This document shows, in pieces, positions 4,828-40,392 of a DNA stretch of 64,000 nucleotides (position 1 is the first letter of the stretch; each line of letters begins with the position of its first letter). Location of the stretch: assembly GCF_058153355.1 (NCBI RefSeq), contig NZ_CM177019.1; one strand, given 5' to 3'. The translations under genes were made by a program, and so were the position numbers. Under the pieces are notes generated by a model. That model worked only from the letters and a program-made list of their open reading frames with translations, was not told the origin of the DNA and did no database searches.

Positions 4828-6144
4828 TTAAGCGCGTTGATTGTCTTTCATCAACAAAGCGGTCATTGCGGAAATCAGGCATCCAGCCAGTAAATAAATG
4901 GCGACGCTATGCCAGTTCCCGGCAAAGTAAGTGATAAGTGCAGCGGCAATGAAAGGTGTAAATCCACCGCCAACCACACTGGCAACCTGATATCCGATTC
5001 CAGCACCACTGTAGCGATAACTGGCACCAAACATTTCGGTAAACATCGGTTGTTGCACGCACACCACCATGTCATGCGCAATGTTTGCCAGCATTATGGA
5101 GAAGAAAACTATCCAGAAAATGGATTGTGCTTCAAGCGCCATAAAGAAAGGAAATGCGCTCAACGTTCCGATTAACGCACCTGTGATATAAACTCTGCGG
5201 CGACCAAAACGATCGGCAAGCCAGGCAAAACAGGGAATTGTCAGACAGCTTAGTCCACCTACCAGCAAACCAATATTGAGGAAAAGTTCGCGCGGTAACC
5301 CCATATTCTGGGTTGAATAATTAAGTGCGAAGGCGGTAACGATGTACATCGTCAGCAACTCGCACAGTCGTAGCGCAATAATCTTCAGAAAAGCACCGGG
5401 ATGTCGTAACAGTGCTTCGATAACCGGGATGCGTTTTTGCGCTGCCGCTTGATTATGTTGCTGTTGTTCAAATTCCGCGGACTCCTCCATGCCATTACGC
5501 ACCCACAATGCCCCCAGTACCAGTACGATGCTAAACAGGAAAGGAATGCGCCAGCCCCAGCTTAAAAACTGTTCGTCAGTCGTCATCATACTGATCAATG
5601 AAACCAGTCCGGTCGAAAGCAGTAAACCTACTCCGTAGCCAACTTGTACACCGCTACTGTAAAAGGCTTTTTTATTTTTCGGTGCACTTTCAACGGAAAG
5701 TAACGCCGCGCCTCCCCATTCGCCGCCGACAGCAAATCCCTGAATGGCACGCAGCGTCACCAGTAAAATGGGGGCCCACCACCCAATAGTCGAGAATGAA
5801 GGAAGAATACCAATCAAGGCTGTCGCGATACCCATCATCCAGACGGTCAGCATTAACATGCGCTTACGTCCCAGTCGGTCGCCAAAGTGACCGAAAATGA
5901 CACCGCCGAGCGGACGGAACAGGAATCCGACACCAAAGGTGGCAAATGCGGCGAGCGTTCCCATAGCCGGGCTTACTTGCGGGAAAAACTCGCGATTAAA
6001 CACCAGTGCGGCGGTAATGCCATAGAGTAAAAAATCATACCAGTCGACGACGGCACCAGCGAAACTGCCTAACGCAGCTCGTCGGGCGCGACTTAACGAA
6101 AGCGTCCCTTCATCGGGACGAGTGGAGATGAGCGTGGAGTCCAT
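4828..6144 (-). CDS. shiA: shikimate/dehydroshikimate MFS transporter
   Basis: 438-aa MFS-type ORF starting MDSTLISTRPDEGTLSLSRARR; position beside amn. Confidence 0.85.
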   Translation of the reverse strand: MDSTLISTRPDEGTLSLSRARRAALGSFAGAVVDWYDFLLYGITAALVFNREFFPQVSPAMGTLAAFATFGVGFLFRPLGGVIFGHFGDRLGRKRMLMLTVWMMGIATALIGILPSFSTIGWWAPILLVTLRAIQGFAVGGEWGGAALLSVESAPKNKKAFYSSGVQVGYGVGLLLSTGLVSLISMMTTDEQFLSWGWRIPFLFSIVLVLGALWVRNGMEESAEFEQQQHNQAAAQKRIPVIEALLRHPGAFLKIIALRLCELLTMYIVTAFALNYSTQNMGLPRELFLNIGLLVGGLSCLTIPCFAWLADRFGRRRVYITGALIGTLSAFPFFMALEAQSIFWIVFFSIMLANIAHDMVVCVQQPMFTEMFGASYRYSGAGIGYQVASVVGGGFTPFIAAALITYFAGNWHSVAIYLLAGCLISAMTALLMKDNQRA

Positions 6145-6449
6145 AATGATCCTGTTTGTACTGTCTTTTTATAATTAGTATGGAAAAGGTAACTCACATT
6201 GCCGTCGATCTATAAACGAACCTTATGAGACTACCGCGCCAGAGCGCTTCTGCAAATGATTTTATGGCTGATTAACGGCAACATGAAAAATTCGATGGAA
6301 GATGAAATCGCAGGAGTTGCATAAGGATTGAGCAGAGCACCTACAGTTTTGAGATATGAAACATAAAAGTCCGCATATGCACAAAATTGCACCCTGATGA
6401 TTCTGATAGACTGCATTGCATTATAACCAGTAGGGAGGCGAGGTTAGGT

Positions 6450-7520
6450 ATGTTTTTAGCATCATTGTTGAGACGTATTGCATTTAGTTACTACGATTAT
6501 AAAGCTAATAATTTCAATATTGAAAAAACAGAGTTTGTTGTCATCCATATTCCCGATCAGATTGGCGATGCTATGGCTATCTTTCCAGTGATTCGGGCGC
6601 TTGAATTGCATAAAATCAAGCATCTTTTAATAGTTACTTCGACAATTAATTTAGAAGTCTTTAATGCGCTCAAACTTGAACATACTAAATTAACATTAGT
6701 CACAATGACTATGCAGGATCACGCAACATTAAAAGAAATAAAAGATTTAGCGAAGAACATAACACAGCAATACGGTACGCCGGATCTTTGTATAGAGGCA
6801 ATGCGTAAAAAGAACCTGAAAACGATGTTATTTATCAGTCAGTTGAAAGCAAAAACAAATTTTCAGGTTGTTGGTTTAACCATGAAGTGCTACTCCCCTT
6901 TGTGTAAGAACGCCTCCCGGATGGATCAACATCTCCGGGCTCCCGTACCCATGACATGGGCGTTTATGATGCGTGAAGCGGGTTATCCGCCAGTCAGGCC
7001 AATATATGAATTACCATTAAGCGAGCAGGTAATAAATGAAGTACGTGAGGAATTGTGCACTTTAGGATCTTACATTGCGCTTAATTTAGATGGCAGCGTG
7101 CAGGAACGCACATTTTCGTTATCAGTAGCTGAGAAACTCATCGCCAAAATTCAAAGTGATAATGATATGCCAATAGTCATTGTTCATGGACCAAAAGGGG
7201 AAGATAAAGCCCGGAAATTAGCGGGTTGTTATAATAATGTCTACCGGCTATCCTTATCACCCTCGATTAAACGTTCAGCAGCAATCATAAAAGATGCTTA
7301 TATCGCAATAACCCCTGATACCTCAATATTACATATGGCAAGTGCCTATAATACCCCCGTCGTTGCAATTTATGCTGATTACAAAACGCGGTGGCCTGCG
7401 ATGGCAGATATCTCGGAGTCAGTGGTCGTTGGGCAAAAAATTGATCATATAAGTTTGGATGAATTCGGAAAGGCGCTAAAAAGTGCTTTGGAGAGAGTAT
7501 GTGTCAGTACTTACGTATAG
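6450..7520 (+). CDS. yeeL: glycosyltransferase family 9 (heptosyltransferase-like) protein YeeL, apparently intact
   Basis: ORF 6387-7520; start placed at internal ATG preceded by GGGAGG. Position between shiA and yeeJ. Confidence 0.6.
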   Translation: MFLASLLRRIAFSYYDYKANNFNIEKTEFVVIHIPDQIGDAMAIFPVIRALELHKIKHLLIVTSTINLEVFNALKLEHTKLTLVTMTMQDHATLKEIKDLAKNITQQYGTPDLCIEAMRKKNLKTMLFISQLKAKTNFQVVGLTMKCYSPLCKNASRMDQHLRAPVPMTWAFMMREAGYPPVRPIYELPLSEQVINEVREELCTLGSYIALNLDGSVQERTFSLSVAEKLIAKIQSDNDMPIVIVHGPKGEDKARKLAGCYNNVYRLSLSPSIKRSAAIIKDAYIAITPDTSILHMASAYNTPVVAIYADYKTRWPAMADISESVVVGQKIDHISLDEFGKALKSALERVCVSTYV

Positions 7521-7818
7521 AAGGTAATGCCGATCTATGCTGAACAGGGGACATTAATACCCTGAGGTTGGTCAATCACCACAAAAAAAGCCTTTGAATC
7601 AAAGCAATACTCACCGAATAATAAGGCAACCTGAACTTAAATCCCCGTTAACTGCCATACATTATTATGACTTGCACTGATGTAATTAGCTAAATATTAT
7701 CGTGATTTGACTAAATAGCAAAAATGATAGCTATCAAAAATAGCTCATATACTTTGTTTCCCGCTGCCGTAGAATAGATGGTCCTTCCATGTTTCAAGCA
7801 TTTATTCAAAAAAAAGGG

Positions 7819-7872
7819 GGCTCGACTGTCTTACGATAAACAGAGAGGGATTGTAAAGTCGAGTGCCCCTAA
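7819..7872 (-). terminator. Rho-independent terminator downstream of yeeJ
   Basis: GC-rich hairpin (GGGGCACTCGACT...AGTCGAGCCCC on the minus strand) followed by a T-run. Confidence 0.5.
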
Positions 7873-7899
7873 TGGAGCACTCTATAAAAAAATCAACAA

Positions 7900-15888
<7,989 letters not shown>

Positions 15889-16196
15889 GCTTACCTTCCC
15901 TGAACGAGCTAACATAAATGCGCCCTTTCTAGCACAGCGAAAAAATATAAATCCTGATAGCAATATGATTGAAAATTAATAACTTTTCGTTAAGCAGTTT
16001 TGGGTGTGAGTTGCAAGAGGGGAGACTACTGAATAACTCAAGTTTTATAATCGAGGGGAAAATGGTGATGGTGTCCATAGCAAAACGCCCTCAACCATAA
16101 AGATCGAGGGCGCTTAAGATGTCAAAAACCCGCTATCCGTTAAAAAGCAATGCTCAACTAAGGTCAGTGACATTGCGCTAAAAAGCGAATTTTTAG

Positions 16197-16216
16197 AATT
16201 TGGCTCCTCTGACTGG
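16197..16216. repeat. island boundary direct repeat (duplicate of tRNA-Asn 3' end, AATTTGGCTCCTCTGACTGG)
   Basis: Identical 20-mer recurs at 33537-33556, overlapping the 3' end of the minus-strand tRNA-Asn. Confidence 0.75.
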
Positions 16217-16367
16217 GATCGCCGTAGCCATTAACTGGCTGATTGGTAAGCTAAACCTAAAAGTTGGGGTTGTCAAGACCACCAGAATGACCACCTCTTT
16301 ACTTTGAAACTAACGACATATTTTACGCTCATCCCTCAGTCAATCGTAAGCTAATAAACAACACCAA

Positions 16368-16748
16368 CTACGGTGCTGGTATTATAGTCTCTGCTCCAAA
16401 CCAATTTCCAAGTGTTGTCAGTGCCGCAGGTGACAAAGCTTGGGTGAAAAGGATCGCAAGGCGCTTTTGGGGTCTGGAACAAGCGACGTAAAACAAATTT
16501 CGGTTTCGTTCAAATGAGTCTTGCTTATCGACTGGAATCGTTTGGGCTCCAGCGAATTCCAACATTTCTCCGAAGTTATACTGGTTCCACCCACGCCCAA
16601 CAACAACCAGGACATTCTCAAATTCAGCACCTTTCACACCATGTTTAGTTTCGAATGGAGAATATCCATCAAGATAACGGCGAAGTGATCTGACCTCCGA
16701 ATAGGGAATATTTTTCAGCTTTTCAAGTTCTTTTAATCTTCGGGGCAT
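16368..16748 (-). CDS. UvrD/PcrA-like SF1 helicase, C-terminal segment
   Basis: Carries helicase motif V/VI-like sequences (KGAEFENVLVV, YVACSRPQKRL); same reading frame as 16794-18122, separated by a single TAA. Confidence 0.6.
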   Translation of the reverse strand: MPRRLKELEKLKNIPYSEVRSLRRYLDGYSPFETKHGVKGAEFENVLVVVGRGWNQYNFGEMLEFAGAQTIPVDKQDSFERNRNLFYVACSRPQKRLAILFTQALSPAALTTLGNWFGAETIIPAP

Positions 16749-16793
16749 TTCAACATCAGCCGTTCTGTCAAAATGGAGTAACTCCTGCTCAAA

Positions 16794-18122
16794 TTATTCA
16801 ACCTTATCTGGAAGTCTTGGCTTCCGTTGAGCACGGATGAACTCAATTACGTCGCCAATTGTACCAGTTTCGCGGAGAGCAAGAAGTTGCGTCATTACAT
16901 TGTGCCAACTCACCTTATCTGAATGTCTACGCAACAGTGGTGTAATACCGCCAAGCGCATTAAACATCTCTCCATACTTACGAGCGGTAAAGGCATCACA
17001 GGCGGGTTCCAGTTTGTCTACAAAAAAGGCTATATGTTCATGTTCCTTTTTCGTGAAGGATTCATTGTATTTAAACGCTGCCACTATATTTGAATAGCCC
17101 TGCTGATTGGCTAAAAGTCGATGGGTCAACATGAGAATTTTGGTGTGATTGGGAGAAAAGTCCCAACCATCCTGCTCCAACGTTGTTTTAACTCGTTCCA
17201 GAGTAGCCTGGCCTTCACATAATGGTAAATCACCACTCCAGTGCACGCCTTTTTGACGAACTCCTTGCCAATTGTTTGTATGGAAAACGCGTACTAAACC
17301 TGTAGCTTCGGGATCTTTAACACACTGCGGTAGCTCAGGTCTCATACGATTAAGGGCATCAACAATTATCTTGTCCGAACGAAAATTGGCTTCTTTACCT
17401 ATTTCAACCACGTCCTGATGTTCCAGCTTTCCACATCCACCACCATAGATTTTTTGCCAATGGTCGCCGAAAAAACCAAATAAAGGTGCTCTAGCTTGTC
17501 CAAGAAAATGCCGTTTAATTGCCTCAATCCAGTTTTTATCAGTGTCCTGGTACTCATCGACCAGAATGATTGGAAAGCGTTCTGCAATCACTCTACGGAA
17601 TTTTTCGTGCTCCATGAGTGAGACAGTTAAAGAAAGAACATCGTCATGATGAAGAGTTATACGATGGTCGCGAATAGAGCGATGTCCAAGATTATACTCA
17701 ACACTACGATTCCCAAGGCTTCCACCAACTTCTTCGAGCTTTTCTGTCCATGTTGGCATTGTCTCAATCAGTTCTCTCAACGGTTTTTGAAAGCTGCTTA
17801 TTAACGACCAACAGAACGCATGATTGGTATCACAAAAAACGATGGGGCTTCGATCTGTTCGCGCGACGATTTCATCCTTCGCCACGTTAGTAAAGGTGAT
17901 GCAGGCAATTTGCTGGCTACGTTTTTCAAATAAATCCTTATTTCGCTCAATCAAGAATCGAAGTGCCTTAATAAGGGAATACGTTTTACCCGCACCAGCG
18001 CCAGCTTCCAGCCGGAAGCTTCGTCCTTCACTGAGGCAAGCATACATAGATTCCAAAGCTCGCTGGCTAGCAGCTTCGGCGGGCGAATGGATCTCAGACA
18101 TCAGCGCTGGCTCCTTCTTCAA
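16794..18122 (-). CDS. UvrD/PcrA-like SF1 helicase, N-terminal segment
   Basis: Walker A GAGAGKTY, motif II ILVDEYQDT, motif III-like FFGDHWQKIY; start overlaps the upstream OLD-family gene by 29 nt. Confidence 0.7.
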   Translation of the reverse strand: MKKEPALMSEIHSPAEAASQRALESMYACLSEGRSFRLEAGAGAGKTYSLIKALRFLIERNKDLFEKRSQQIACITFTNVAKDEIVARTDRSPIVFCDTNHAFCWSLISSFQKPLRELIETMPTWTEKLEEVGGSLGNRSVEYNLGHRSIRDHRITLHHDDVLSLTVSLMEHEKFRRVIAERFPIILVDEYQDTDKNWIEAIKRHFLGQARAPLFGFFGDHWQKIYGGGCGKLEHQDVVEIGKEANFRSDKIIVDALNRMRPELPQCVKDPEATGLVRVFHTNNWQGVRQKGVHWSGDLPLCEGQATLERVKTTLEQDGWDFSPNHTKILMLTHRLLANQQGYSNIVAAFKYNESFTKKEHEHIAFFVDKLEPACDAFTARKYGEMFNALGGITPLLRRHSDKVSWHNVMTQLLALRETGTIGDVIEFIRAQRKPRLPDKVE

Positions 18123-20166
18123 TACTAGTTGTGGCTTCTACAACTTGCGCCAATACTGGATCTTGTGTCATAAGCTCATTGCTGCCAGCTAACCAGCGGA
18201 TTCCATCGACTATGTATTTGGGGGCGTTCCATTCTGTCTCTGTAATCGCGTATTTCAATGCAAATTCTGATTTTTTCCACTCAGACGCTTTATCACGGGC
18301 TTCTATTTCCAGTTCCTGAGAATTTCTCCCTACCAGCCCGAATAAAGCCGAATTTGCAAGGATAAATGCATCTTCGAATGTGCGTCCGCAGGGGCCATCT
18401 GTCACTTCTGCACATTGATAGGCAATACGATTTCCATTACGAGCTTTATCATCGTCACTCCTGGCAATCAAACCAGCTAATGTGAAAGGGGTATCTTCAG
18501 AGAACCATGCTTTCAAACAAGCATTACTGGAATATGTACCAAGATGAACAGCACATGCCTGACCTCCTGCTCTTTGGACTGCGTCCAGATCTGTTATGAT
18601 CAGACTCTGAAGCTCAAGAAACGCTAATAACTCGAAGAACAAATGAGCGTAAGCACCGCCGACTTCCATCACCGTTGCGTACTGGCTCGACAGCTTCGGT
18701 CTCTCTGGTTCGGCTGATTCTAGTTTTTTGATGATGACGGGAAGCAATAATCGCTCGCTTAACCCCTCGACGAGAATCGCTTTATCTGCGAAAAACAGAT
18801 CACAACGTGTCAACGTCATGTATTGATGAAGGAATTTTTTATCTTCAATTAGAATATGATTCAGCCCTTTACGCAGATCTTTAATTTTGGTTTTTCGGAC
18901 ACCTTCCTGAGTCCCCTGTGCTGGAGCCCCCAGAAAATAGCGAATACTCTCGAAACCAGCCGCATTGGCAATGTGAGACGAGTGTGTAGACACGACAAAT
19001 TGTACAGGCCAGGGTCTCCTGTCCTCAGTGCCATCCACCAGTTGTTGTGCAATTTTGGCAAGTTGACGAATAAAAACCTCCTGCATTTGTGGATGCAGAT
19101 GGGCTTCTGGTTCTTCAATGAATATCAGGTGTACACCCGGCTCAGTAACTTCAGCACAAAATGCTTTATAGAAACCAGCTAATTGCAAGAGAATAAATAT
19201 CAGATTACGTGTACCAAGACCGTTATATGACTCCGGTAATGCGATTCCGCTATAACCTGAATAGCGAACTTTCGTGAAGTTTGATAGCAACTTGCTAACA
19301 TCGAGCAATGTTTCAGTATGTAACTCCTGTCCTCCCAATCCTGGGTATCCAAAAGTTTCTAGAGCCGGAATCAGACTGTTGAGCTGGTTTCCGAAGTTTG
19401 TGTCAATTTGAGTCTGAATGTCCTGAACTGCACCTTTCAATGCATCAGCAATTTGTTTATCAGCAGCTCCCGCAGATGCCGAAGAGGCTGTTGCGAAAAG
19501 ATTTTCAACCGTTTTAGCCAGTACATCGGATTCTCGGGACGTCACATCATCAAGTCCTCGCTGAGCGTTGATAAAGCCCGATTTGACCAGACCGCGCAAT
19601 GCACTAGGTGGTAACTCGCGACGATTATCAGGATCGTTGGGATCTTCAGCCCATATTTTCACACAGAAATTATTAGGGATACGTTCTCGCAATATACGGA
19701 GGAAAGCGAGGCGGTCTTCTCTAGAAAGTGGCATTTCAGTCTGACTTTCGAGAAATTGTGTCAGATGGCCATCTTTCAATTCGTATCGGACTACTACCTG
19801 CGCTTCAGAACACGCGGGATCCAAATCGATAACAAAGGGACTCAATGGACCTAATTGAGGTTGTGCAGGGTCGTACTGGAATTTCAGTCGAAGTTCAATG
19901 GCGGGAATAAGTTCTCGAACGAGATGATCTTCCATGCCTTCCTTAAGTGCTTCCAGAACATCACAAAAACGGTCGTAGCAGGAACTGGAAAAGTCTTCAA
20001 GTTGGAAAGTAGCACTACCATCTGCTAAGAATCTGCGTATTATTTCTGAGAGTGATGTTTTTCCGCTGTTGTTTCGTCCAACAATGACGGTCGTCTGTTC
20101 CTCCAATACAAGCTCTGCATCAGCTAAAAGACGGAAGTTTTTAATTTCGACCTGATGAATGTGCAT
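18094..20166 (-). CDS. OLD-family ATP-dependent endonuclease (ABC ATPase plus TOPRIM), GajA-like
   Basis: 690 aa; Walker A GRNNSGKTS, Walker B/D-loop LIFIEEPEAHLHP, H-loop STHSSH, TOPRIM-like AILVEGLSE and ITDLD. Confidence 0.7.
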   Translation of the reverse strand: MHIHQVEIKNFRLLADAELVLEEQTTVIVGRNNSGKTSLSEIIRRFLADGSATFQLEDFSSSCYDRFCDVLEALKEGMEDHLVRELIPAIELRLKFQYDPAQPQLGPLSPFVIDLDPACSEAQVVVRYELKDGHLTQFLESQTEMPLSREDRLAFLRILRERIPNNFCVKIWAEDPNDPDNRRELPPSALRGLVKSGFINAQRGLDDVTSRESDVLAKTVENLFATASSASAGAADKQIADALKGAVQDIQTQIDTNFGNQLNSLIPALETFGYPGLGGQELHTETLLDVSKLLSNFTKVRYSGYSGIALPESYNGLGTRNLIFILLQLAGFYKAFCAEVTEPGVHLIFIEEPEAHLHPQMQEVFIRQLAKIAQQLVDGTEDRRPWPVQFVVSTHSSHIANAAGFESIRYFLGAPAQGTQEGVRKTKIKDLRKGLNHILIEDKKFLHQYMTLTRCDLFFADKAILVEGLSERLLLPVIIKKLESAEPERPKLSSQYATVMEVGGAYAHLFFELLAFLELQSLIITDLDAVQRAGGQACAVHLGTYSSNACLKAWFSEDTPFTLAGLIARSDDDKARNGNRIAYQCAEVTDGPCGRTFEDAFILANSALFGLVGRNSQELEIEARDKASEWKKSEFALKYAITETEWNAPKYIVDGIRWLAGSNELMTQDPVLAQVVEATTSIEEGASADV

Positions 20167-20303
20167 ATGTCCCTCATGATCTATTTATAGTCTATCGATA
20201 AATCTGATGTTATTGCTCTACCTGTAATTTTCATTCTTACGATTGTTTTGCAATGCAAAATATACCTCAGGCCATATTTATTCCTGAGGTATGTTTTGGT
20301 ATC

Positions 20304-21824
20304 TCACTCGGTCAAAGAGGCCTCACGAACATCATCCGGTTGAGGTTGGCACTCTTTCCATCGTCGAATAAGCGTTGCTACACAGGGATTACCCGCCAGT
20401 TGATTCATTCTGACCCAGTCAACATCCACTAATCCAGCCAGAAGTTCAGGATTTAGTTCCCCTTGTAATGGGTGCCACTGGCGAATACTGGGCTGGCGCT
20501 GAATTTGAGGTTGAAGGGGAGCCAAACTCCCGACGATAACGTAATTTTGTTCTGGATCATGCCAGAGTCGTGTAATGCCAGGTATGTTTTTCAACCAGTT
20601 TCGAGGATCACCTAAAGGTAAATCAAAAACACGAGAGAGTAATTTATTCCATGACGCTATTAATGACGAACTGGCTTTCTTTGCCAATTTTTTCTCACCT
20701 GCCAGGAGTGCATTTTTTCTTTCTGGCCATTTGGAAAAAATATAACTTTTTAAAATATCGTAGGTAACATTAAGTTCATTATTGTAATAATACTCACGCA
20801 AAGCACAATTCCACAACTCGCACAGCAAGTCTAGTTCACGCATGAGTGTATTTTTATTGGTATCTGATAATTCACCTTCCTCATTAAGTTGCGCTATATA
20901 AAAAGACAGTATCTTTGTATCTGGTAAGAGCCAGTGGTTTAGTGAGAACTGCTGACTTTGAGTATCAAGAACAGTCATTAATGCATCTAAATTCTCAGGG
21001 ATCATATTAGGGGTGTCGTATTTCGGATCCTGAAGAAGAATGGATATTTCTTCCATTCTATGAATAATTATTGTCAATCTCTGAGCAAATCTGGTTAATT
21101 TATCTTCACTGCTGCCAAAACCTTGCGCTATTGATTCAGGCCGATAAGTATAAGGCCATTTTTTATTTAAGAGAGTAAGAAGAGCCTCGACAGAGGTATC
21201 AAACAGTTTCAGCCTTTCATCGCAGGCTTTAACTAAATCCGGGCAAGAAGGATTAAAAGGTAAAATTACTGGGCGGTCTTGTTCAGCGGTGAATAAATAT
21301 CCTTCGGTGATAACCAATAGGTCATGAGTCAGTAAGTCTTTCTGTTCTGTCAGGCTTGTACTGATTCTTGTTTCTTTGCAAAGTAAAAGATGCTTCAACG
21401 CAAGTTCTTTGTACGCAACTTCGGTATTACGCGCCAATGCATCAAGACAGGTCTTTTTCTCAAGATCTTGAATGGCATAGTCGTAATAGCAAGAATCTAT
21501 CGCAGGGATGAGTCGGGTAGTCCCATCGGGAGTATCCTGCTCAATCAATAAATTATCAACAACAGAATCACCACTAAGATCAAACGGATTAACGTTGATA
21601 TGCTGGCACGCAATTTTAGTTCTTAGATTCTGAGTTAACGGATAGCGGTCATCAATTATACCACGGATCTGATCTAACAAAACAAGTATGCATATAGAGC
21701 TGTCTTTTTCCAATTTTTCAAATGATGAGGGTTCTGAATCCGGTAATAATTCCAGCTGTACATCAGGATACTTTTTGTTCAACACCTTTTGTATCTGCGC
21801 ACTTCCCCGTGAAACCCGGGTCAT
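20304..21824 (-). CDS. hypothetical protein, no recognisable motif; 5' end lies in IS66-derived sequence
   Basis: Long ORF (track 20304-22004); only in-frame Met codons are inside the IS66 tnpC remnant, so the native N-terminus is probably lost. Confidence 0.4.
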
Positions 21825-22843
21825 CCAACCGGAAGAAGAATGCTGCCCGGCCTGTGGTGGCGGGCTCAGTCCTCTGGGATGTGATGTGTCAGAACAACTG
21901 GAGCTTATCAGCAGCGCCTTTAAGGTTATCGAAACACAACGTCCGAAACTGGCCTGTTGCCGGTGCGACCATATCGTGCAGGCTCCGGTGCCTTCAAAAC
22001 CCATTGCACGCAGTTATGCCGGAGCGGGGCTTCTGGCCCATGTTGTCGCTGGAAAATATGCAGACCATCTGCCGTTATACCGCCAGTCAGAAATATACCG
22101 TCGTCAGGGCGTGGAGCTGAGCCGTGCCACACTGGGGCGCTGGACAGGTGCTGTTGCTGAACTGCTGGAACCGCTGTATGACATCCTGCGCCAGTATGTG
22201 CTGATGCCCGGTAAAGTCCATGCCGATGATATCCCCGTTCCGGTCCAGGAGCCGGGCAGCGGTAAAACAAGGACTGCCCGGCTGTGGGTCTACGTTCGTG
22301 ATGACCGTAACGCCGGTTCGGAAATGCCTCCGGCGGTCTGGTTCGCGTACAGCCCGGACCGGAAAGGTATCCATCCACAGAATCATCTGGCCGGTTACAG
22401 CGGAGTGCTTCAGGCCGATGCTTACGGTGGTTACCGGGCGTTGTACGAATCCGGCAGAATAACGGAAGCCGCATGTATGGCTCATGCCCGGAGAAAAATC
22501 CACGATGTGCATGCAAGAGTGCCCACCGACATCACCACGGAAGCCCTGCAGCGTATCGGTGAACTGTATGCCATCGAGGCAGAGGTCCGGGGCTGTTCAG
22601 CAGAACAGCGTCTGGCGGCAAGAAAAGCCAGAGCCGCGCCACTGATGCAGTCACTGTATGACTGGATACAGCAACAGATGAAAACACTGTCGCGTCACTC
22701 GGACACGGCAAAAGCGTTCGCATACCTGCTGAAACAGTGGGATGCACTGAACGTGTACTGCAGTAATGGCTGGGTGGAAATCGACAACAACATCGCAGAG
22801 AACGCCTTACGGGGAGTGGCCGTAGGCCGGAAAAACTGGCTCT

Positions 22844-24667
22844 GTGTGTCACGAAGGAGTACTTATGGCAACAATGTGAAAATTGCAGCATAAGTTATCC
22901 ATGCTCTGAGGTGGGTGGAGGTGGGCCCTCCGGTCAGGGTTTACAGGAGCACTGACCAAACGACCCGGTGCTGCTTCATTCTAAGGAATGAGGTGGTGAG
23001 CGACTCGGGAAAAGGCAGAGATCTACTGTCACGTGGGGTTCGGGAAGCTGAACGAAAGTAAACTGTCCGATGAAGCATCGAAATCTTAGATGATGTCAAA
23101 ATGGGGCCGTACAGCCGTCCCCTGATAAGCGCAGAAGACACCTGCTTACTGACTGCGCGGCATCCGGTGTGAAGGCAGCAGGATCCCGGGCCAGACCATC
23201 TCAGGGAACGTGAGAACCTGTTTCCGGCACGTATCGGGAAACAGGGGCGGACCCATTCGTAGTAGTGATGAAAGATCTGTAATGGGTCTGGAGCGAAGGG
23301 ATGGGGATCACATTCATTGCAGAAGACACAACCCAAAAGGGGATGACGTAACTGATGCAACGAAAATCATTTGAAATACCAAAAGCACTGGTCTGGGCAT
23401 CATATCTGGATGTGCGTCGCAACAAGGGAGCCCCCGGATGCGACGGGCAGACTTTGAAAATGTTCGACCAGCAACGTGATGGCAATCTATACAAGATCTG
23501 GAACCGGCTATGTTCGGGAACATGGTTTCCGCCACCAGTGCTGGAAAAACGGATCCCGAAGTCGAATGGCAAGGAACGCATTCTGGGGATCCCAACAGTA
23601 TCCGATCGAATTGCTCAGGGAGCGATAAAACTTTTCATGGAAGAAAAGCTTGACCCGATTTTCCATGCTGATTCATATGGTTACCGACCAGGCAAATCAG
23701 CTCATGACGCTCTGAAACAATGTGCCATCCGGTGCTGGCGTTATAGCTGGATACTGGAAGTGGACATCAGTGCGTTTTTCGACCATGTGAGACATGATCT
23801 GGTGCTCAAAGCTCTGGAACACCACGGGATGCCTAAATGGGTCATCCTGTACTGTCGACGCTGGATGGAAGCGCCAATGCAGAGTTGTGAAAATGGAGAA
23901 TTAATAACCCGAACACGAGGCACTCCGCAGGGCGGGGTCATTAGTCCACTACTTGCTAACTTGTTCCTTCACTATGCATTTGATTTGTGGATGGAAAGAG
24001 AATATCGGGGGGTACCGTTTGAGAGGTACGCTGACGATATTGTAGTACATTGTTCACGAATGAGTGATGCAACAAGGCTGAAGAACAGGTTATCGGAGCG
24101 CTTCTCGGAAGTCGGGCTGGTCCTGAATGCAGGGAAAACGAATATCGCCTACATTGACACGTTTAAAAGGAGAAACGTCGCAACGAGTTTCACCTTTCTC
24201 GGATATGACTTCAAAGTGCGTACGCTGAAGAATTTCAAAGGCGAACTGTACCGAAAATGCATGCCGGGTGCGTCAAATGCAGCAATGCGCAAAATAACAG
24301 AAACAATCAAGAAGTGGCGTATACATCGCTCAACAGCTGAGAGTTTGCTGGATTTTGCGAGGCGCTACAATGCGATAGTGAGAGGCTGGATCGAGTACTA
24401 CGGAAAGTTCTGGTCCAGAAATTTCAACTATCGACTGTGGAGTGCAATGCAGTCACGTCTGCTCAAGTGGATGCAGTCTAAATACAGACTTTCGAACCGG
24501 AAGGCTCAGCGAAAGCTGACGCTGGTAAGGAAGGAGTATCCGAAGCTATTTGTTCACTGGTATTTACTACGTGCATCAAATGAGTGATCAAGAGCCGTAT
24601 GACGCGAGAGTGTCACGTACGGTTCCGTGAGCAGCCGGGGAGTGAAATTCTCTCCGGCTGACTCGAC
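22844..24667 (+). mobile_element. group II intron (~1.8 kb) with intron-encoded reverse transcriptase
   Basis: 5' GTGTG start; domain V-like GAGCCGTATGACGCGAGAGTGTCACGTACGGTTC near 3' end; joining the flanks restores the TnpC frame (KNWL-FAGSDSGG). Confidence 0.7.
23355..24587 (+). CDS. group II intron reverse transcriptase/maturase
   Basis: 410 aa with RT motifs including YADD and a C-terminal maturase-like region. Confidence 0.8.
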   Translation: MQRKSFEIPKALVWASYLDVRRNKGAPGCDGQTLKMFDQQRDGNLYKIWNRLCSGTWFPPPVLEKRIPKSNGKERILGIPTVSDRIAQGAIKLFMEEKLDPIFHADSYGYRPGKSAHDALKQCAIRCWRYSWILEVDISAFFDHVRHDLVLKALEHHGMPKWVILYCRRWMEAPMQSCENGELITRTRGTPQGGVISPLLANLFLHYAFDLWMEREYRGVPFERYADDIVVHCSRMSDATRLKNRLSERFSEVGLVLNAGKTNIAYIDTFKRRNVATSFTFLGYDFKVRTLKNFKGELYRKCMPGASNAAMRKITETIKKWRIHRSTAESLLDFARRYNAIVRGWIEYYGKFWSRNFNYRLWSAMQSRLLKWMQSKYRLSNRKAQRKLTLVRKEYPKLFVHWYLLRASNE

Positions 24668-24852
24668 TCGCAGGTTCCGACAGCGGTGGCGAACATGCGG
24701 CGGTGTTGTACTCGCTGATCGGCACATGCCGTCTGAACAATGTGGGGCCAGAAAAATGGCTGCGTTACGTCATTGAGCATATCCAGGACTGGCCGGCAAA
24801 CCGGGTACGCGATCTGTTGCCCTGGAAAGTTGATCTGAGCTCTCAGTAAATA

Positions 24853-26796
24853 TCAATACGGTTCTGGCGAGCCGCTTACGTTTAATCGGGAAATCTCATA
24901 TTTTCGGTTCATCATTAATGGCAGAAGGAAGCGTTGATGCTGTTGACGAGAAATTTCACCAGCACGGAGCAGTTTTTCTAGGTTGCGTAACTGGAAACCC
25001 GCATGCGCCATATCATCATTGTTCTCTGTATTGGCCTGAAAAGCGGAAAAGTAATAATGCCGTGATTCCAGCAAATATAAACAGGTCAGATCCATATTTT
25101 TGCCAGATTCAGGCAGGCTGAAATCCAGATTCACACCATTCGTCGCAGAGGCGGTCTGAGTCAGCACAATGACAATACGCCGGGAGGCAAATGCGGCCTG
25201 ATAAGCATCACTAAAGCCCTTTTTCTTCTGACATTCTGCGGTTAACAGACAAATCAGCGCAGGCTCATTATGTATGCTCACTGGGATAAACACATCAGCA
25301 AAATTTTTTAGTAGAGGATCATCAGATAAAGGTTGTTCCATTTTTAACCATGCGAGGTATTCTCTACTTTGTGTTGCTATTGTAGTGGTAAGCCATTTTC
25401 TTAAATAGGCTATGGAATTCACGAAAGCAAGATGCCCCCGGTGTTGAGGTCTTTTTCCCGCAAGATCCAATACATTAAGCAATTTTAGCAGTATATTTTT
25501 TCGATATTCTGATTCGAAATCTGATGAGGGGTCATCGCCATTCTGGAAAAAATCGGGGGCTAGCGAAGCGAGCAGATCAACACAATGCGGGTTATTCTTT
25601 ATGCTATTGAAATCTTGAATCTCAGCATTCAGTTGTGTGTTTCTGATATTTTCTTTGCTGTTATTGATCTCTTCAATAGCTAAATACTGCAACTGGAAAT
25701 CATCAGCCGTCTGGACATAAGGTATCGGTTCTTTAAACCACTCGACAGGTCGTTTTTCAAAAGTTGTTCCCAGAAAACTTTGTGTAACAGCAGGGTTGCG
25801 TGCTTCTGCAATATAACGAAGAGCTGAATTAATCCACCGGACATCGAAGTGATTACAGGCTCTTTCAATATATGACGTAGCCGACAGTGCAAAGACAAGA
25901 TTACGACTGGCGAGAGAAAGCAGCAGACCTTCTGCCGTCGTGGGCAGAAAGGCACGTTTGATCTGTATCCGTAACGGATCGATATCCGTATCTGAGACAT
26001 TCTGTTTCAGCAACCAATTGGTCAAGCCAAAAATACTGGCATGAGTATTTGGCAAAATATTACTTTTCCTTAATTCCCGTAGTTCCGGCAGGTCAGTACG
26101 CGGTAACAAAAATCGGGACATATTGGGCAGGGTTGAGCCGTAGTATGAAGGCCTGTAATCATTAACGGGGTCGAACAGAAGTCGGGTTAACTTTTTAATG
26201 TATTCATACGCTTCATCTTCACTTGCAGTCAGGTCGGTCAACATTAGGCTAAACTGTCGAATGAATTTTTCCATCAAGCGTAAAAAATCACTGATGTCGA
26301 TAGTCTGATCGCTATCCTGAAGCGGAGAGTCTGGCCTGATAATTTCGTATCCATGTTCCGCTTTCCGCATAATAAGCCGTTCACTGGTCACCAGTTGATC
26401 GGAACGGAATAAATAATGCTCACCAAAGGGTTTATTATCCAGATATTGCTGAAGAGGAATAACCAGCGATCTGGCATGTGTTAAATCAGCATGTTTTTCT
26501 GTTAATGCACTATCCAGATCATTAATAAATTTTTCTAGACGTTCACGGATCATAGGTGCAGGTTCCATTTCAACATACTGCATACGTTGTAGTAATCTGC
26601 GTCCCCCGTCGAGCAACTGACCCAGACACTCAGGTGGTTCCTGAACCCATTGCGCCTGTGCCAGATACTCTTGTAATACCTCAGACTGGTAATCAAATTC
26701 ATCGATGAAAATGATGTAATTACGCAGCTCTTTGCTGGACATTTTTACTTTGCGACGCCCATCGTAAAACGATGAAACCATCTTTTGAGTCGTCAT
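24853..26796 (-). CDS. hypothetical large protein, downstream part of a split P-loop NTPase; Walker-B-like IIFIDEFD near N-terminus
   Basis: 647-aa ORF; stop codon lies inside the IS66 terminal repeat; starts 2 nt after the stop of 26799-27572 in another frame. Confidence 0.45.
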   Translation of the reverse strand: MTTQKMVSSFYDGRRKVKMSSKELRNYIIFIDEFDYQSEVLQEYLAQAQWVQEPPECLGQLLDGGRRLLQRMQYVEMEPAPMIRERLEKFINDLDSALTEKHADLTHARSLVIPLQQYLDNKPFGEHYLFRSDQLVTSERLIMRKAEHGYEIIRPDSPLQDSDQTIDISDFLRLMEKFIRQFSLMLTDLTASEDEAYEYIKKLTRLLFDPVNDYRPSYYGSTLPNMSRFLLPRTDLPELRELRKSNILPNTHASIFGLTNWLLKQNVSDTDIDPLRIQIKRAFLPTTAEGLLLSLASRNLVFALSATSYIERACNHFDVRWINSALRYIAEARNPAVTQSFLGTTFEKRPVEWFKEPIPYVQTADDFQLQYLAIEEINNSKENIRNTQLNAEIQDFNSIKNNPHCVDLLASLAPDFFQNGDDPSSDFESEYRKNILLKLLNVLDLAGKRPQHRGHLAFVNSIAYLRKWLTTTIATQSREYLAWLKMEQPLSDDPLLKNFADVFIPVSIHNEPALICLLTAECQKKKGFSDAYQAAFASRRIVIVLTQTASATNGVNLDFSLPESGKNMDLTCLYLLESRHYYFSAFQANTENNDDMAHAGFQLRNLEKLLRAGEISRQQHQRFLLPLMMNRKYEISRLNVSGSPEPY

Positions 26797-26798
26797 GA

Positions 26799-27572
26799 TC
26801 AGCAGGTGTTGCTTTTCGTCACGCCAGGCAATGGCGGGCAGAATGCGCCTGACCCAGACGTGGCGACGGAAATCTGCAACTCGTTGCCTGGCTTGGCTGC
26901 CTGCGTGAGTTCATGTTCTTCGCCATATTTTTCTTTTTGTTTCTTGGCTTCTTTTTCCAGCAATTTGATATTCTGAATCAGAGTTATCTCCACCGCTGCG
27001 CATGATTTGATTAATGACTCTTTCTCACTGGCGATGGCCGTCTGAAAACGCGTCGGATATCCTTTCAGCGATTTGTTAATATGCAGTATGTTTTTGCAAT
27101 TTCTACGCAATTTGTCGGCGATATCCTGAATGGCAAACAAATTTCTGTCTTCCAGGATATTGATGGAGTCAAATGGATCGGGAAGTGAGTCTGCGGAAAT
27201 ATTATTCTCATGAGGCAAGGGGGTGGCCTCGATGGCAGAAACGATCTGTTCATCTTGTGCATAGAGCACGCTGACGGTGAATGGTTCCCCGTTACTGTCT
27301 TTATGCGCTGCCGTTTTCTCATAAATGTCGTGCAAAATATTCCAGCGATGGGTAACCAGAATGGCTTGAGAGCCTGATTTTTTTATCGTCTCCAGCGCCG
27401 GGAGAGCGTTATCGGCATAGCCAGAGCGGTAGAGTGAGCTGGTTTTTCCGCTACCCGTAGGCCCCTGAAGCTGACAAAATCCTGCGATACGACGGGATGT
27501 TTTGGATTTTTTTGCCTGAGAAAGGGTGTATTCAATAACGGCATTGTAGGAACGTATTAAAGGGGCACTCAC
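26799..27572 (-). CDS. P-loop NTPase N-terminal segment (Walker A GPTGSGKTS)
   Basis: 257-aa ORF with Walker A near residue 40; low-complexity C-terminal tail suggests a frameshift into the next ORF. Confidence 0.45.
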   Translation of the reverse strand: MSAPLIRSYNAVIEYTLSQAKKSKTSRRIAGFCQLQGPTGSGKTSSLYRSGYADNALPALETIKKSGSQAILVTHRWNILHDIYEKTAAHKDSNGEPFTVSVLYAQDEQIVSAIEATPLPHENNISADSLPDPFDSINILEDRNLFAIQDIADKLRRNCKNILHINKSLKGYPTRFQTAIASEKESLIKSCAAVEITLIQNIKLLEKEAKKQKEKYGEEHELTQAAKPGNELQISVATSGSGAFCPPLPGVTKSNTC

Positions 27573-27885
27573 ATTTCACCTCATCCGTGTCAGGTTATCG
27601 AAGAGTAGAATTTCAGCAAATTCATGTTACACCGAACGGGTATCATTTCAATGTTTAATAATAATTTCCCCTTATAAAACAACGCTTATAATACATTCGC
27701 AGGTCAGATGATTTATCGGTGTGTTATTTGTTTGAATTTGGTGTTGTGGTTTTCTTTTTTTAACAATCTTCGATCTTCCTTCCACGACTTCCCCTTGCCG
27801 TTTTCAACCGAAAGCGGTATCTTTCACTTGCACCTGCAAAATCAGGTGCCGGGATTGGAACCCCGAAATGTAACCATACTGGCGA

Positions 27886-27910
27886 CACGTGACGCGTCTG
27901 CGTCTTTTTT
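27886..27910 (+). terminator. hairpin plus T-run (GACGCGTCTGCGTC-TTTTTTT)
   Basis: Short GC stem followed by seven T on the plus strand. Confidence 0.35.
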
Positions 27911-28075
27911 TATGTCGCGCGCTTAGCTACACCAAAATTATGGTGGGCTGGGCGGGGGCACCGTAAGGTGCGCCGGTTCCAGTATGGCCGGTAGTTCCAA
28001 CCTCGTTCAGTCCACCACCCATGAGATTGGAACCTCTGGTGGTGGTTTTCAAACCACATACTGGAGGCTGCCTTT

Positions 28076-30250: not shown

Positions 30251-30535
30251 GCTGGAGTCTGACACCGCCTTTTCAGGCCATTTACCTATAAGGAGAACAT
30301 GAATCGATACCGAGGCGGATCCGGACGATCCGGGGGATAACCCGCGCAAGCGGGCGGCTGCTCAGAGAGCACAACCGAAGCCCCACCACACCTCAACGGC
30401 TGCCGCCCCGGCGCTCAGGTATCGTTCGCAGCCCCGACAAAAAAACAGGGGCTATCGGCCTGTGCGCCGGGGAAAGCTGTATCAGTGTTGGTTTTTTGGG
30501 GGATGAGTTTGCGGCAATCATGAAAAGGGGAATGT

Positions 30536-33540: not shown

Positions 33541-33616
33541 TGGCTCCTCTGACTGGACTCGAACCAGTGACATACGGATTAACAGTCCGCCGTTCTACCG
33601 ACTGAACTACAGAGGA
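33541..33616 (-). tRNA. asnT: tRNA-Asn (GUU), island integration target
   Basis: Exact reverse complement of the 76-nt tRNA-Asn at 1688-1763; symbol by synteny with yeeJ and mtfA. Confidence 0.9.
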
Positions 33617-34607: not shown

Positions 34608-34697
34608 GGAGAGATGCCGGAGCGGCTGAACGGACCGGTCTCGAAAACCGGAGTGGGGGCAACTCCACCGGGGGTTCAAATCCCCCTCTCTCCGCCA
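34608..34697 (+). tRNA. serU: tRNA-Ser (CGA)
   Basis: 90-nt GGAGAGATGCCGGAGCGGCTGAACGGACCGGTCTCGAAAACCGG...TCTCCGCCA with long variable arm and CGA anticodon. Confidence 0.85.
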
Positions 34698-39545: not shown

Positions 39546-40392
39546 GATGGCAGCCTCGATAGTCAGTTTAAATAACTCACCACCAGAGGTAGCAATCTCA
39601 TGGGTGGTGAGACGCACAGGGTTGCTACAACCGGTGACTACCGAAACCGGCCAGCCTTGCGGCTGCCCTGCACGCCCCACCATAATCTGAATGTGGCTGT
39701 GCTTGACGCATAAAAAAACCGCCTGAGCGCGGTTATGCGCAGTAGTCATCGTCGGGGTAGCAATCCCGGCACCCGTTTTATGAGGTGCAGGTGCACTATA
39801 ATTCCACCCGTTCTGGTTTTCAATAGCTACATTCAACATTTTCTCTTTCCTTTCATCACCGAAGTGAACTTTGTTGATGCGGTGCCTGGTGCCTCCAGGT
39901 GACGTTAACCAGTTAACAATTAACGCCGGAATAAGGGATTTTCCTTACTGTTTTAACTGTTCCGCGTGCGCTGAGCCGCATTCACCGCATCACAAAATTC
40001 ACTTTAAAAAGGGCGGACATCAGCCAGCAATTAAACCGATGCCGCCAAAGGTAATCAACATGGGTTGTTGCAGCGGGGTTGTCGCTCAGGCGTATGGTCA
40101 ACCTGACAACCCGGTGGACATTTGCGAGGAACGGAGAACCCCCGCCATACTTACCGCCGCGCCATTTCGCGGATTGCCACAACCGGAAGCGCACGGTCGA
40201 AGAAAATTTAACGACAGGCTATCTATGAACCAGCAACCTCGCCGTGCGCTTTCGCGTTATGCTCTGACTTTTCAGGGAAATATCCTTTCAGTAAACTGTC
40301 AGTGCCGGATACTCACCCGTGTCCGGCGCACCTACTCCACCTTACCCGTGGAGAACTCCTTAATTACCAACCTTAGCTTCGTTGGTTAGCTA

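What the first reader, a model, noticed from the sequence alone, without database searches (positions are those of the whole stretch)
16749..16796. Single in-frame TAA splits the UvrD-like helicase
ORFs 16794-18122 and 16368-16748 share a reading frame and are separated by one stop and 15 sense codons. Helicase motifs I-III sit in the first ORF and V/VI in the second, so this looks like a nonsense mutation in one gene.
Basis: seen in the sequence. Interest (0 to 1): 0.55.

Follow-up and report, generated by a model that had tools for sequence, protein, structure and literature searches.

The report
Nonsense mutation in Gabija gajB
A single A-to-T change has turned lysine codon 436 of the E. 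coli anti-phage gene gajB (the helicase-like partner of the Gabija nuclease GajA) into a stop codon; this is an ordinary, inherited gene-killing mutation in a decaying genomic island, not a new kind of feature.

Summary
On the minus strand, a TAA at 16796-16794 is followed in the same frame by 15 sense codons and the ATG of ORF 16368-16748.

The two ORFs are the two pieces of gajB, the UvrD-like ATPase of a Gabija defence operon. The partner gene gajA (18094-20166) is intact.

**The mutation.** In E. coli LF82 and 17 other complete genomes the gene is one 577-codon ORF with AAA (Lys436) at this position. The window has TAA, so the change is K436*. Homologues at 63-95% identity in many genera are almost all single 574-589 aa proteins, so a natural two-gene arrangement is refuted.

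**Not a sequencing error.** The identical allele occurs on five contigs from at least three other read sets or assemblies. One of them is a distinct strain whose island has a different structure.

**Consequence.** The stop lies inside a confidently predicted helix. It removes motifs V and VI and two core strands of the second RecA-like domain. The stop context is UAA-U, and no Shine-Dalgarno sequence precedes M452.

**Inference.** Published work shows that GajB and its ATPase site are essential for defence, so this Gabija system is most likely dead.

Neighbouring island genes are also broken, by an IS66 fragment with a group II intron and by a frameshift. The finding is ordinary and of low interest.

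The parts
16794..16796 (-). Premature stop codon TAA at gajB codon 436 (AAA, Lys, in intact alleles). The following base is T, giving a UAA-U context.
   Evidence: The only change at this codon relative to LF82 is + strand 16796, A versus T.
16797..18101 (-). gajB N-terminal fragment, codons 1-435. It carries SF1 motifs I-IV, domains 1A and 1B, the N-terminal half of 2A and most of the helical insertion. The product is identical to NCBI HFG3511285.1.
   Evidence: PDLC00113 positions 4-435, E=2.6e-203; exact sequence in the collection.
16749..16793 (-). Fifteen in-frame sense codons (residues 437-451 of intact GajB, FEQELLHFDRTADVE), now untranslated. E438 and L441 are invariant in homologues.
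16368..16748 (-). gajB C-terminal remnant ORF, codons 452-577 plus the stop. It carries motifs V and VI and the last two core strands of domain 2A. No Shine-Dalgarno sequence precedes its ATG. It is deposited as '3'-5' exonuclease' HFG3511284.1.
   Evidence: PDLC00113 positions 453-575, E=2.1e-57; (best anti-SD duplex -1.7 kcal/mol).
18094..20166 (-). gajA, an intact 690-aa OLD-family ATPase/TOPRIM nuclease. It is the upstream partner in the Gabija operon, and its stop overlaps the gajB ATG by 8 nt.
   Evidence: PDLC00063 positions 1-672 of 679, E=3.4e-290; Pfam AAA_15, AAA_21, OLD-like_TOPRIM; no stops or indels versus LF82.
20304..21803 (-). 3' remnant of the 818-aa hypothetical gene that is intact next to gajA in LF82. 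This is context: further decay of the same island.
21804..24878 (+). IS66-family transposase fragment carrying a group II intron. It replaces about 2.17 kb of the two hypothetical genes. This is context.
24879..27572 (-). 5' remnant of the 1300-aa hypothetical gene, with an additional 5-bp insertion that shifts the frame at codon 227. This is context.

Best explanation
The TAA is a genuine, vertically inherited nonsense mutation (AAA to TAA, K436*) in gajB, the UvrD-like SF1A (d)A/(d)GTPase of a two-gene Gabija anti-phage operon (gajA-gajB). The operon lies in a tRNA-Asn-associated genomic island of Escherichia coli.

Translation from ATG 18101 stops after residue 435, in the middle of an alpha-helix of the helical insertion. 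The product keeps domains 1A and 1B, where the GajA-docking surface lies in the solved Bacillus GajAB complex. It lacks motifs V and VI, including the motif VI arginine, and two of the core beta-strands of RecA-like domain 2A. It should therefore be unable to hydrolyse nucleotides.

GajB and its ATPase site are required for Gabija defence in the experimental systems, so this Gabija copy is inferred to be non-functional even though gajA is intact. The 126-codon downstream ORF is a remnant, not a gene.

Shown here: the mutation, its ancestral state, its presence in several assemblies, the single-gene state of the homologues, and the position of the stop relative to motifs and predicted structure. 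Inferred: loss of ATPase activity and loss of defence.
For: - **Identity of the genes:** PADLOC GajB PDLC00113 and GajA PDLC00063. PDB sequence hits are to GajB chains 8jqb, 8iud, 8j4t and 8sm3. Foldseek finds the UvrD/PcrA/Rep and GajB folds.
- **Ancestral codon:** AAA (Lys) in LF82 and in all intact alleles read. Among the 27 other sequences of the 28-sequence alignment (which includes LF82), the column is K16, D6, R4, E1.
- **Single-gene homologues:** 18 of 19 complete E. coli genomes have one 577-aa CDS. The best 120 database homologues are almost all 574-589 aa.
- **A real allele:** the exact 435-aa product is on 5 contigs, including SRR8656992, GCA_043012465.1 and SRR34880751. All three loci read carry the same 10 differences from LF82, including TAA. 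L005 (SRR34880751) is a different strain: it lacks the IS66/intron replacement and has its own 8-bp deletion in the 818-aa gene.
- **Termination and no restart:** the context is UAA-U. No in-frame start lies between the stop and M452. The best Shine-Dalgarno duplex before M452 is -1.7 kcal/mol, against -8.0 for gajB and -6.1 for gajA. No suppressor tRNA is in the window.
- **Structure:** K436 lies in helix 432-442 (block pLDDT 85-89). Strands 494-501 and 544-552 fall after the stop.
- **Literature:** GajA and GajB are each essential for defence in vivo, and GajA-GajB contacts lie in GajB domain 1B (PMC10781630). GajB Walker A and Walker B double mutants lose ATPase activity and phage resistance (bioRxiv 10.1101/2023.05.02.539174).
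- **Context of decay:** the neighbouring 818-aa and 1300-aa genes are truncated by IS66 and a group II intron, and one is frameshifted.
Against: - Raw reads were not examined, so support for the TAA is at assembly level only.
- No experiment shows that this E. coli Gabija variant needs GajB motifs V and VI. It shares only about 15-17% identity with the Bacillus cereus model protein in the Foldseek alignments.
- Low-level reinitiation at M452 after termination 45 nt upstream cannot be excluded by sequence analysis.
- The downstream fragment shows no extra damage: its one difference from LF82, T553, is the state found in all 27 other homologues. gajA is intact with roughly 1:1 synonymous to nonsynonymous changes (10 versus 9). 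Decay of the operon itself is therefore minimal, and the lesion may be recent.
- The 'repaired' allele (K436 on the window background) is not on record, so the immediate intact progenitor is unsampled.
Confidence: 0.9

Rival explanations
1. Sequencing or assembly error: the genome really has AAA, and the TAA is an artefact of this assembly.
For: Single-base errors do occur, and reads could not be inspected. The intact version of this exact allele is not on record.
Against: The identical 435-aa product and the identical TAA occur in contigs assembled from other read sets by other pipelines: Logan SRR8656992, Logan SRR34880751 and NCBI GCA_043012465.1. SRR34880751 has a structurally different island, so it is a different strain. 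The change is a transversion outside any homopolymer.
Confidence: 0.03
2. Functional split gene: the 435-aa N-terminal and 126-aa C-terminal products are both made, the second by reinitiation at M452. They reassemble into an active two-piece GajB, so Gabija still works.
For: - The C-terminal ORF is undamaged and keeps motifs V and VI.
- A second, independent nonsense allele, Q439*, lies only 3 codons away in another strain and leaves the same 126-aa ORF (L006).
- Post-termination ribosomes can sometimes reinitiate nearby (general knowledge).
Against: - There is no Shine-Dalgarno sequence before M452 (-1.7 kcal/mol).
- The break is inside a confident helix, and residues 437-451, including invariant E438 and L441, would be lost.
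- The split would divide the beta-sheet core of domain 2A between two chains.
- Among the 120 best homologue clusters, 118 are 559-589 aa at 97-100% coverage (117 of them 574-589 aa). One is the window's own 90% cluster, which holds the truncated fragments. One is a 463-aa representative at 80% coverage (P0118) that was not examined.
- The closeness of Q439* is largely an ascertainment effect. It was found by looking up the 126-aa ORF, which is only called when a stop falls between M403 and M452.
- A third allele, W191*, breaks the gene elsewhere.
Confidence: 0.04
3. Stop-codon readthrough or suppression yields enough full-length GajB for function.
For: Published over-expression data suggest that GajB must be less abundant than GajA for defence (bioRxiv 10.1101/2023.05.02.539174), so a low level might in principle suffice.
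Against: By general knowledge of E. coli termination, UAA followed by U is among the most efficient termination contexts. The context is read directly. The window contains no suppressor tRNA, only two tRNA-Asn and one tRNA-Ser. The site has no recoding signal, repeat or conserved structure, and no intact allele has a stop here.
Confidence: 0.02
4. Adaptive loss: inactivation of gajB was selected, for example to relieve a cost of Gabija or to permit uptake of a phage or plasmid. On this view the mutation is not neutral decay.
For: At least three independent nonsense alleles exist in this one 90%-identity gene family with gajA left intact: W191* in strain A13, K436* here and Q439* in ERR12830858. 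Other truncated forms are known in E. albertii and Citrobacter.
Against: - The gajA cluster also contains truncated members (583 aa and several partial sequences). With more than 1000 contigs sampled, a few null alleles are expected by chance.
- Published growth curves show no toxicity of Gabija without phage (bioRxiv 10.1101/2023.05.02.539174).
- The neighbouring genes are broken too, which fits general island erosion.
- This rival concerns the cause of the mutation, not what the feature is. It is compatible with the best explanation.
Confidence: 0.1

Closest known systems
Gabija anti-phage system (GajA OLD-family nuclease plus GajB UvrD-like ATPase; Bacillus cereus VD045 model, PDB 8SM3, 8J4T, 8JQB)
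   Same: The window has the same two-gene operon in the order gajA-gajB, with overlapping stop and start. GajA is an ATPase plus OLD-type TOPRIM nuclease. GajB is an SF1A UvrD-like protein with motifs I-VI. Both genes give top PADLOC hits to GajA and GajB models, and sequence and fold hits to solved GajB chains.
   Different: This is a proteobacterial subfamily with larger proteins (690 and 577 aa, against 578 and 494 aa). Identity to BcGajB is only about 15-17% in the Foldseek alignments. In this window gajB is interrupted by K436*, so the defining intact GajB is missing.
Intact orthologue WP_001289508.1 (E. coli LF82 LF82_RS10450, 'UvrD-helicase domain-containing protein', 577 aa)
   Same: It is 99.4% identical at the DNA level over 1734 nt and sits in the same island beside the same gajA and the same two large hypothetical genes near tRNA-Asn.
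   Different: LF82 has AAA at codon 436 and 9 other substitutions. Its island is flanked by a PTS/hxlB sugar cluster instead of the giant Ig-like (invasin/intimin-type) adhesin gene, and its neighbouring genes are intact.
Other gajB null alleles: E. coli A13 (W191*, annotated as two CDSs, WP_001289507.1 and WP_000229280.1) and ERR12830858 (Q439*)
   Same: They are the same gene family with single-base nonsense mutations, an intact gajA, and fragments annotated as separate proteins, the C-terminal one as '3'-5' exonuclease'.
   Different: They are independent events at other codons, on the LF82-type allele background.

Membership tests
Gabija defence system | GajA: an N-terminal ABC/AAA ATPase domain plus a C-terminal OLD-type TOPRIM nuclease domain | tested here: met
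   ORF 18094-20166(-), 690 aa. It matches PADLOC GajA PDLC00063 at E=3.4e-290 over positions 1-672 of 679. Pfam assigns AAA_15, AAA_21 and OLD-like_TOPRIM to the identical product. It has no stops or indels versus LF82.
Gabija defence system | GajB: a UvrD-like SF1 protein encoded immediately downstream of gajA in the same operon | tested here: met
   PADLOC GajB PDLC00113 is matched by both fragments. The gajB ATG 18101 overlaps the gajA stop at 18094-18096 by 8 nt.
Gabija defence system | A complete, uninterrupted GajB polypeptide carrying all ATPase motifs (needed for defence in the model system) | tested here: not met
   TAA at codon 436 separates motifs I-IV from motifs V and VI. The window therefore holds a Gabija locus with a gajB pseudogene, not an intact system.
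Gabija defence system | 4:4 GajAB complex formation and protection against phage | not testable with these tools
   This needs biochemistry or plaque assays. The literature basis is PMC10781630 and bioRxiv 10.1101/2023.05.02.539174.
SF1A UvrD/Rep/PcrA-like helicase fold | Two RecA-like domains (1A, 2A) with inserted 1B and 2B subdomains, and motifs I, II (DExQD), III, IV, V and VI | tested here: met
   This was tested on the intact orthologue. Pfam finds AAA_19, UvrD-helicase and UvrD_C. The AlphaFold model has mean pLDDT 80.3. Top Foldseek hits are UvrD1, PcrA, UvrD, Rep and GajB at E=1e-18 to 1e-11. The motifs are invariant in the alignment.
Pseudogene by nonsense mutation | A premature stop relative to intact close orthologues, with the sense codon identifiable | tested here: met
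   AAA to TAA at codon 436 versus LF82 and all intact alleles.
Pseudogene by nonsense mutation | The stop is present in the organism and is not an assembly artefact | tested here: met
   The same allele is on 5 contigs from at least 3 other data sets, one of them a structurally distinct strain. Read-level confirmation was not possible.
Pseudogene by nonsense mutation | Loss of function of the product | not testable with these tools
   This is inferred from the loss of motifs V and VI and of two core strands of domain 2A, and from published mutant data for Bacillus GajB.
Naturally split (two-gene) helicase | Homologues in other genomes encoded as two adjacent genes broken at the same point | tested here: not met
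   The best 120 homologues are nearly all 574-589 aa with 97-100% coverage. The PADLOC profile is continuous over 579 positions.

The most novel reading that the evidence does not exclude
Recurrent, independent nonsense mutations in gajB (W191*, K436*, Q439*) with gajA always left intact might reflect selection rather than drift. One version is selection to switch Gabija off while keeping GajA. The other is selection for a working two-piece GajB: the N-terminal 435-438 aa docking on GajA, plus a separately initiated 126-aa C-terminal piece. The two stops three codons apart would then mark a permissive split site.
Probability: 0.05. Interest if true: 0.45.

Novelty: already known. Interest (0 to 1): 0.12.

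Why it matters
It matters little beyond bookkeeping. Defence-system finders and annotation pipelines will count this locus as a Gabija system, or will list two unrelated-looking proteins. NCBI names the fragments 'UvrD-helicase domain-containing protein' and '3'-5' exonuclease'. In fact the system is most likely inactive in this lineage.

The case is a small, clean example of erosion of a defence island: a nonsense mutation, an IS66/group II intron replacement and frameshifts. It could serve as a natural gajB-null control for studying what GajA does alone.

Tried and rejected
- **TTG 18122 as the start.** I looked up the exact 442-aa product from TTG 18122. It is not in the collection, whereas the 435-aa product from ATG 18101 is. 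TTG 18122 was rejected as the start.
- **The 'repaired' allele.** I looked up the K436 version of the window allele. It is not on record, so no intact progenitor of this exact allele was found.
- **L007 as another split allele.** It was rejected. The break in this ENA metagenome scaffold is a run of Ns, that is a scaffold gap.
- **Suppressor tRNA.** None was found in the window.
- **A ribosome-binding site before M452.** None was found.
- **Preferential loss of gajB over gajA.** I compared the member lists of the two clusters. Both contain truncated or partial members, and only 15 of about 90 members are listed for each, so nothing can be concluded.
- **Accelerated decay after the stop.** The window's other amino-acid differences from LF82 are mostly the states seen in distant homologues (D314, G384, T553), so there is no sign of it.
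- **Families for the two neighbouring large hypothetical proteins.** I searched PADLOC, NCBIfam and Pfam and found nothing significant.

Full report
**1. The observation**

On the minus strand the sequence reads ...CCA GAT AAG GTT GAA TAA TTT GAG CAG GAG TTA CTC CAT TTT GAC AGA ACG GCT GAT GTT GAA ATG CCC CGA.... The TAA occupies 16796-16794. The next 45 bases (16793-16749) are 15 sense codons. ATG 16748 opens ORF 16368-16748 (126 aa) in the same frame as ORF 16794-18122.

**2. What the gene is**

Both ORFs match one PADLOC profile, GajB PDLC00113, which has 579 positions. The upstream ORF covers positions 4-435 (E=2.6e-203) and the downstream ORF covers positions 453-575 (E=2.1e-57).

The ORF immediately upstream, 18094-20166(-), is a full-length GajA (PDLC00063, positions 1-672 of 679, E=3.4e-290). 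Pfam assigns AAA_15, AAA_21 and OLD-like_TOPRIM to the identical GajA product. On the intact GajB orthologue Pfam finds AAA_19, UvrD-helicase and UvrD_C.

The only solved structures found by sequence search are Gabija GajB chains (8jqb, 8iud, 8j4t, 8sm3), Rep and UvrD1. The locus is therefore a Gabija anti-phage operon, and the 'UvrD-like helicase' is gajB.

The true gajB start is ATG 18101. It overlaps the gajA stop by 8 nt and has a Shine-Dalgarno duplex of -8.0 kcal/mol. RefSeq uses this start in LF82. The 435-aa product from this ATG is on record, and the 442-aa product from TTG 18122 is not.

**3. Which codon was replaced, and are intact homologues one gene?**

Megablast finds the locus in 19 of 5426 complete E. 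coli genomes, all at 99.3-99.4% identity. In LF82 the gene is one 1734-nt CDS, WP_001289508.1, 577 aa.

A base-by-base comparison gives 10 differences within the CDS. One of them is + strand 16796, A in the window and T in LF82. On the coding strand this is AAA (Lys436) to TAA. Every intact allele read has K at this position. Among the other 27 sequences of a 28-sequence alignment the column is K16, D6, R4, E1.

The 120 best database homologues are 63-95% identical and come from Hafnia, Serratia, Salmonella, Yersinia, Citrobacter, Klebsiella, Cupriavidus, Burkholderia, Pseudomonas and other genera. Almost all are 574-589 aa with 97-100% coverage.

**4. Is the stop real?**

Reads cannot be inspected with these tools, but independent assemblies can be compared. 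The exact 435-aa truncated protein is on five contigs.

- L004 (NCBI GCA_043012465.1) is 100% identical to window 6794-21893.
- L003 (Logan assembly of SRR8656992) is 99.993% identical over the same stretch.
- L005 (Logan assembly of SRR34880751) carries the same ten gajB differences, including the TAA. It has an island of different structure: the two neighbouring large genes are contiguous, with no IS66/intron replacement, and it has its own 8-bp deletion in the 818-aa gene.

The allele is therefore shared by at least two distinct strains and reproduced by different pipelines. It is an inherited mutation, not an artefact. In L005 the TAA is present without the IS66/intron rearrangement. That fits the TAA arising before the rearrangement seen in the window, although the order of the two events was not otherwise tested. 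The 'repaired' allele (K436 on this background) is not on record.

**5. Consequences for the protein**

The motifs invariant in the 28-sequence alignment divide as follows.

| Fragment | Motif | Sequence and residues |
|---|---|---|
| Before the stop | I | AGAGAGKT, 33-40 |
| Before the stop | II | DEYQD, 182-186 |
| Before the stop | III | GDHWQKIY, 212-219 |
| Before the stop | IV | NFRS, 239-242 |
| After the stop | V | T485, H487-A492, F494 |
| After the stop | VI | Y538, V539, C541-R543 |

An AlphaFold2 model of the intact orthologue has mean pLDDT 80.3. It has the SF1A fold: the top Foldseek hits are UvrD1, PcrA, UvrD and Rep, with GajB 8sm3_B at E=1.9e-12.

In the model K436 lies inside helix 432-442 (block pLDDT 85-89), so it is not in a linker. 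Beta-strands 494-501 and 544-552 belong to the C-terminal part with motifs V and VI, and they fall after the stop. I infer from established knowledge of SF1 helicases that the motif VI arginine and the integrity of domain 2A are needed for NTP hydrolysis. On that basis the 435-aa product should be catalytically dead.

Three observations argue against rescue.

- The stop context is UAA-U.
- No in-frame start codon lies between the stop and M452, and the best anti-Shine-Dalgarno duplex before M452 is -1.7 kcal/mol.
- The window has no suppressor tRNA.

**6. Consequences for the system (inference from the literature)**

In the Bacillus cereus VD045 system, GajA and GajB are each essential for defence in vivo. 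GajA-GajB contacts lie in GajB domain 1B (PMC10781630). GajB Walker A (K28A/T29A) and Walker B (D167A/E168A) mutants lose both ATPase activity and phage resistance (bioRxiv 10.1101/2023.05.02.539174).

By analogy, the window's Gabija copy should be non-functional. The truncated GajB could still dock on GajA, since 1B is retained, but this was not tested. The E. coli proteins are only about 15-17% identical to the Bacillus GajB model in the Foldseek alignments, so the transfer is an inference.

**7. Context: an eroding island**

The operon lies in an island that extends from about 16190 to the tRNA-Asn gene at 33541-33616. In LF82, gajA is followed by intact genes of 818 aa and 1300 aa. In the window:

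- About 2.17 kb spanning the junction of these two genes is replaced by 3.08 kb (21804-24878). The insert holds an IS66-family transposase fragment and a complete group II intron: Rfam D1-D4 at 22917-23033, the RT/maturase ORF at 23355-24587, and domain V/VI at 24590-24667.
- The remaining part of the 1300-aa gene carries a 5-bp insertion at codon 227.

gajA itself has 10 synonymous and 9 nonsynonymous differences from LF82, with no lesion. The other gajB differences are mostly the states seen in distant homologues, so there is no sign of accelerated decay after the stop.

**8. Other null alleles**

- Strain A13 has an independent W191* (TGG to TAG). It is annotated as two CDSs, the second named '3'-5' exonuclease'.
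- ERR12830858 has Q439* on the LF82-type background.
- Further truncated forms exist in E. albertii and Citrobacter.

Q439* lies close to K436*, but this is largely explained by how it was found. It came from a look-up of the 126-aa ORF, which is only called when a stop falls between M403 and M452. The gajA cluster also has truncated members. I see no solid evidence for selection, and that reading is kept only as a low-probability novel case.

**9. Verdict**

The feature is an ordinary nonsense pseudogene (K436*) of gajB in a known defence system, and its fragments are already deposited as HFG3511285.1 and HFG3511284.1. Interest is low. The main practical point is that this locus should not be counted as a functional Gabija system, and that the '3'-5' exonuclease' annotation of the C-terminal fragment is an artefact.

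Noticed in passing
window 21804-24878: An IS66-family transposase fragment (ORF 21688-22893, NF033517) carries a complete group II intron. The intron parts are Rfam group-II-D1D4-2 at 22917-23033, an RT/maturase ORF at 23355-24587 (TIGR04416) and Intron_gpII domain V/VI at 24590-24667. The insert replaces about 2.17 kb of two island genes that are intact in E. coli LF82.
   Followed up: partly
L008:12115-18477 (E. coli LF82); remnants at window 20304-21803 and 24879-27572: Two large conserved genes (818 aa and 1300 aa) sit directly upstream of gajA. Neither has a significant Pfam, NCBIfam or PADLOC family; the only hint is AAA_11 at E=0.03 in the 1300-aa protein. They are an orphan pair beside Gabija in a tRNA-Asn island and might be an uncharacterised defence module. 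Both are destroyed in the window, by the deletion/replacement and by a 5-bp frameshift insertion at codon 227 of the 1300-aa gene.
   Followed up: partly
L002:7230-7802 and 6069-7112 (E. coli A13); L006:8648-10381 (ERR12830858): These loci carry independent gajB nonsense alleles, W191* and Q439*, on the LF82-type background with gajA intact. Q439* is only three codons from the window's K436*.
   Followed up: partly
window 16368-16748; L002:6069-7112: RefSeq/PGAP names the C-terminal gajB fragments '3'-5' exonuclease' (HFG3511284.1, WP_000229280.1) and does not flag the split gene as a pseudogene. This is an annotation artefact that can inflate protein-family counts.
   Followed up: yes
window 7900-15963 (-): A giant 2687-aa ORF encodes an inverse-autotransporter adhesin with Ig-like repeats (Pfam IAT_beta, Invasin_D3 and many Big_1 on the same product). 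It abuts the gajB end of the island. In LF82 the island is instead flanked by a PTS/hxlB sugar-utilisation cluster, so the island junction differs between lineages.
   Followed up: no
window 27830-28022 (+), 39600-39788 (-), 30299-30428 (+): Two isrK plus C4-antisense RNA pairs and an EFASI RNA reach Rfam gathering scores. There are also tRNA-Asn genes at 1688-1763 and 33541-33616 and a tRNA-Ser(CGA) gene at 34608-34697. This suggests P4-like or prophage-derived elements at tRNA integration sites.
   Followed up: no
L007 (ENA scaffold XIEH16-1_SAMEA3449286_METAG-scaffold_20718): The apparent gajB split in this metagenome scaffold is caused by a run of Ns (a scaffold gap) at codons 438-442. It is not a mutation.
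   Followed up: yes
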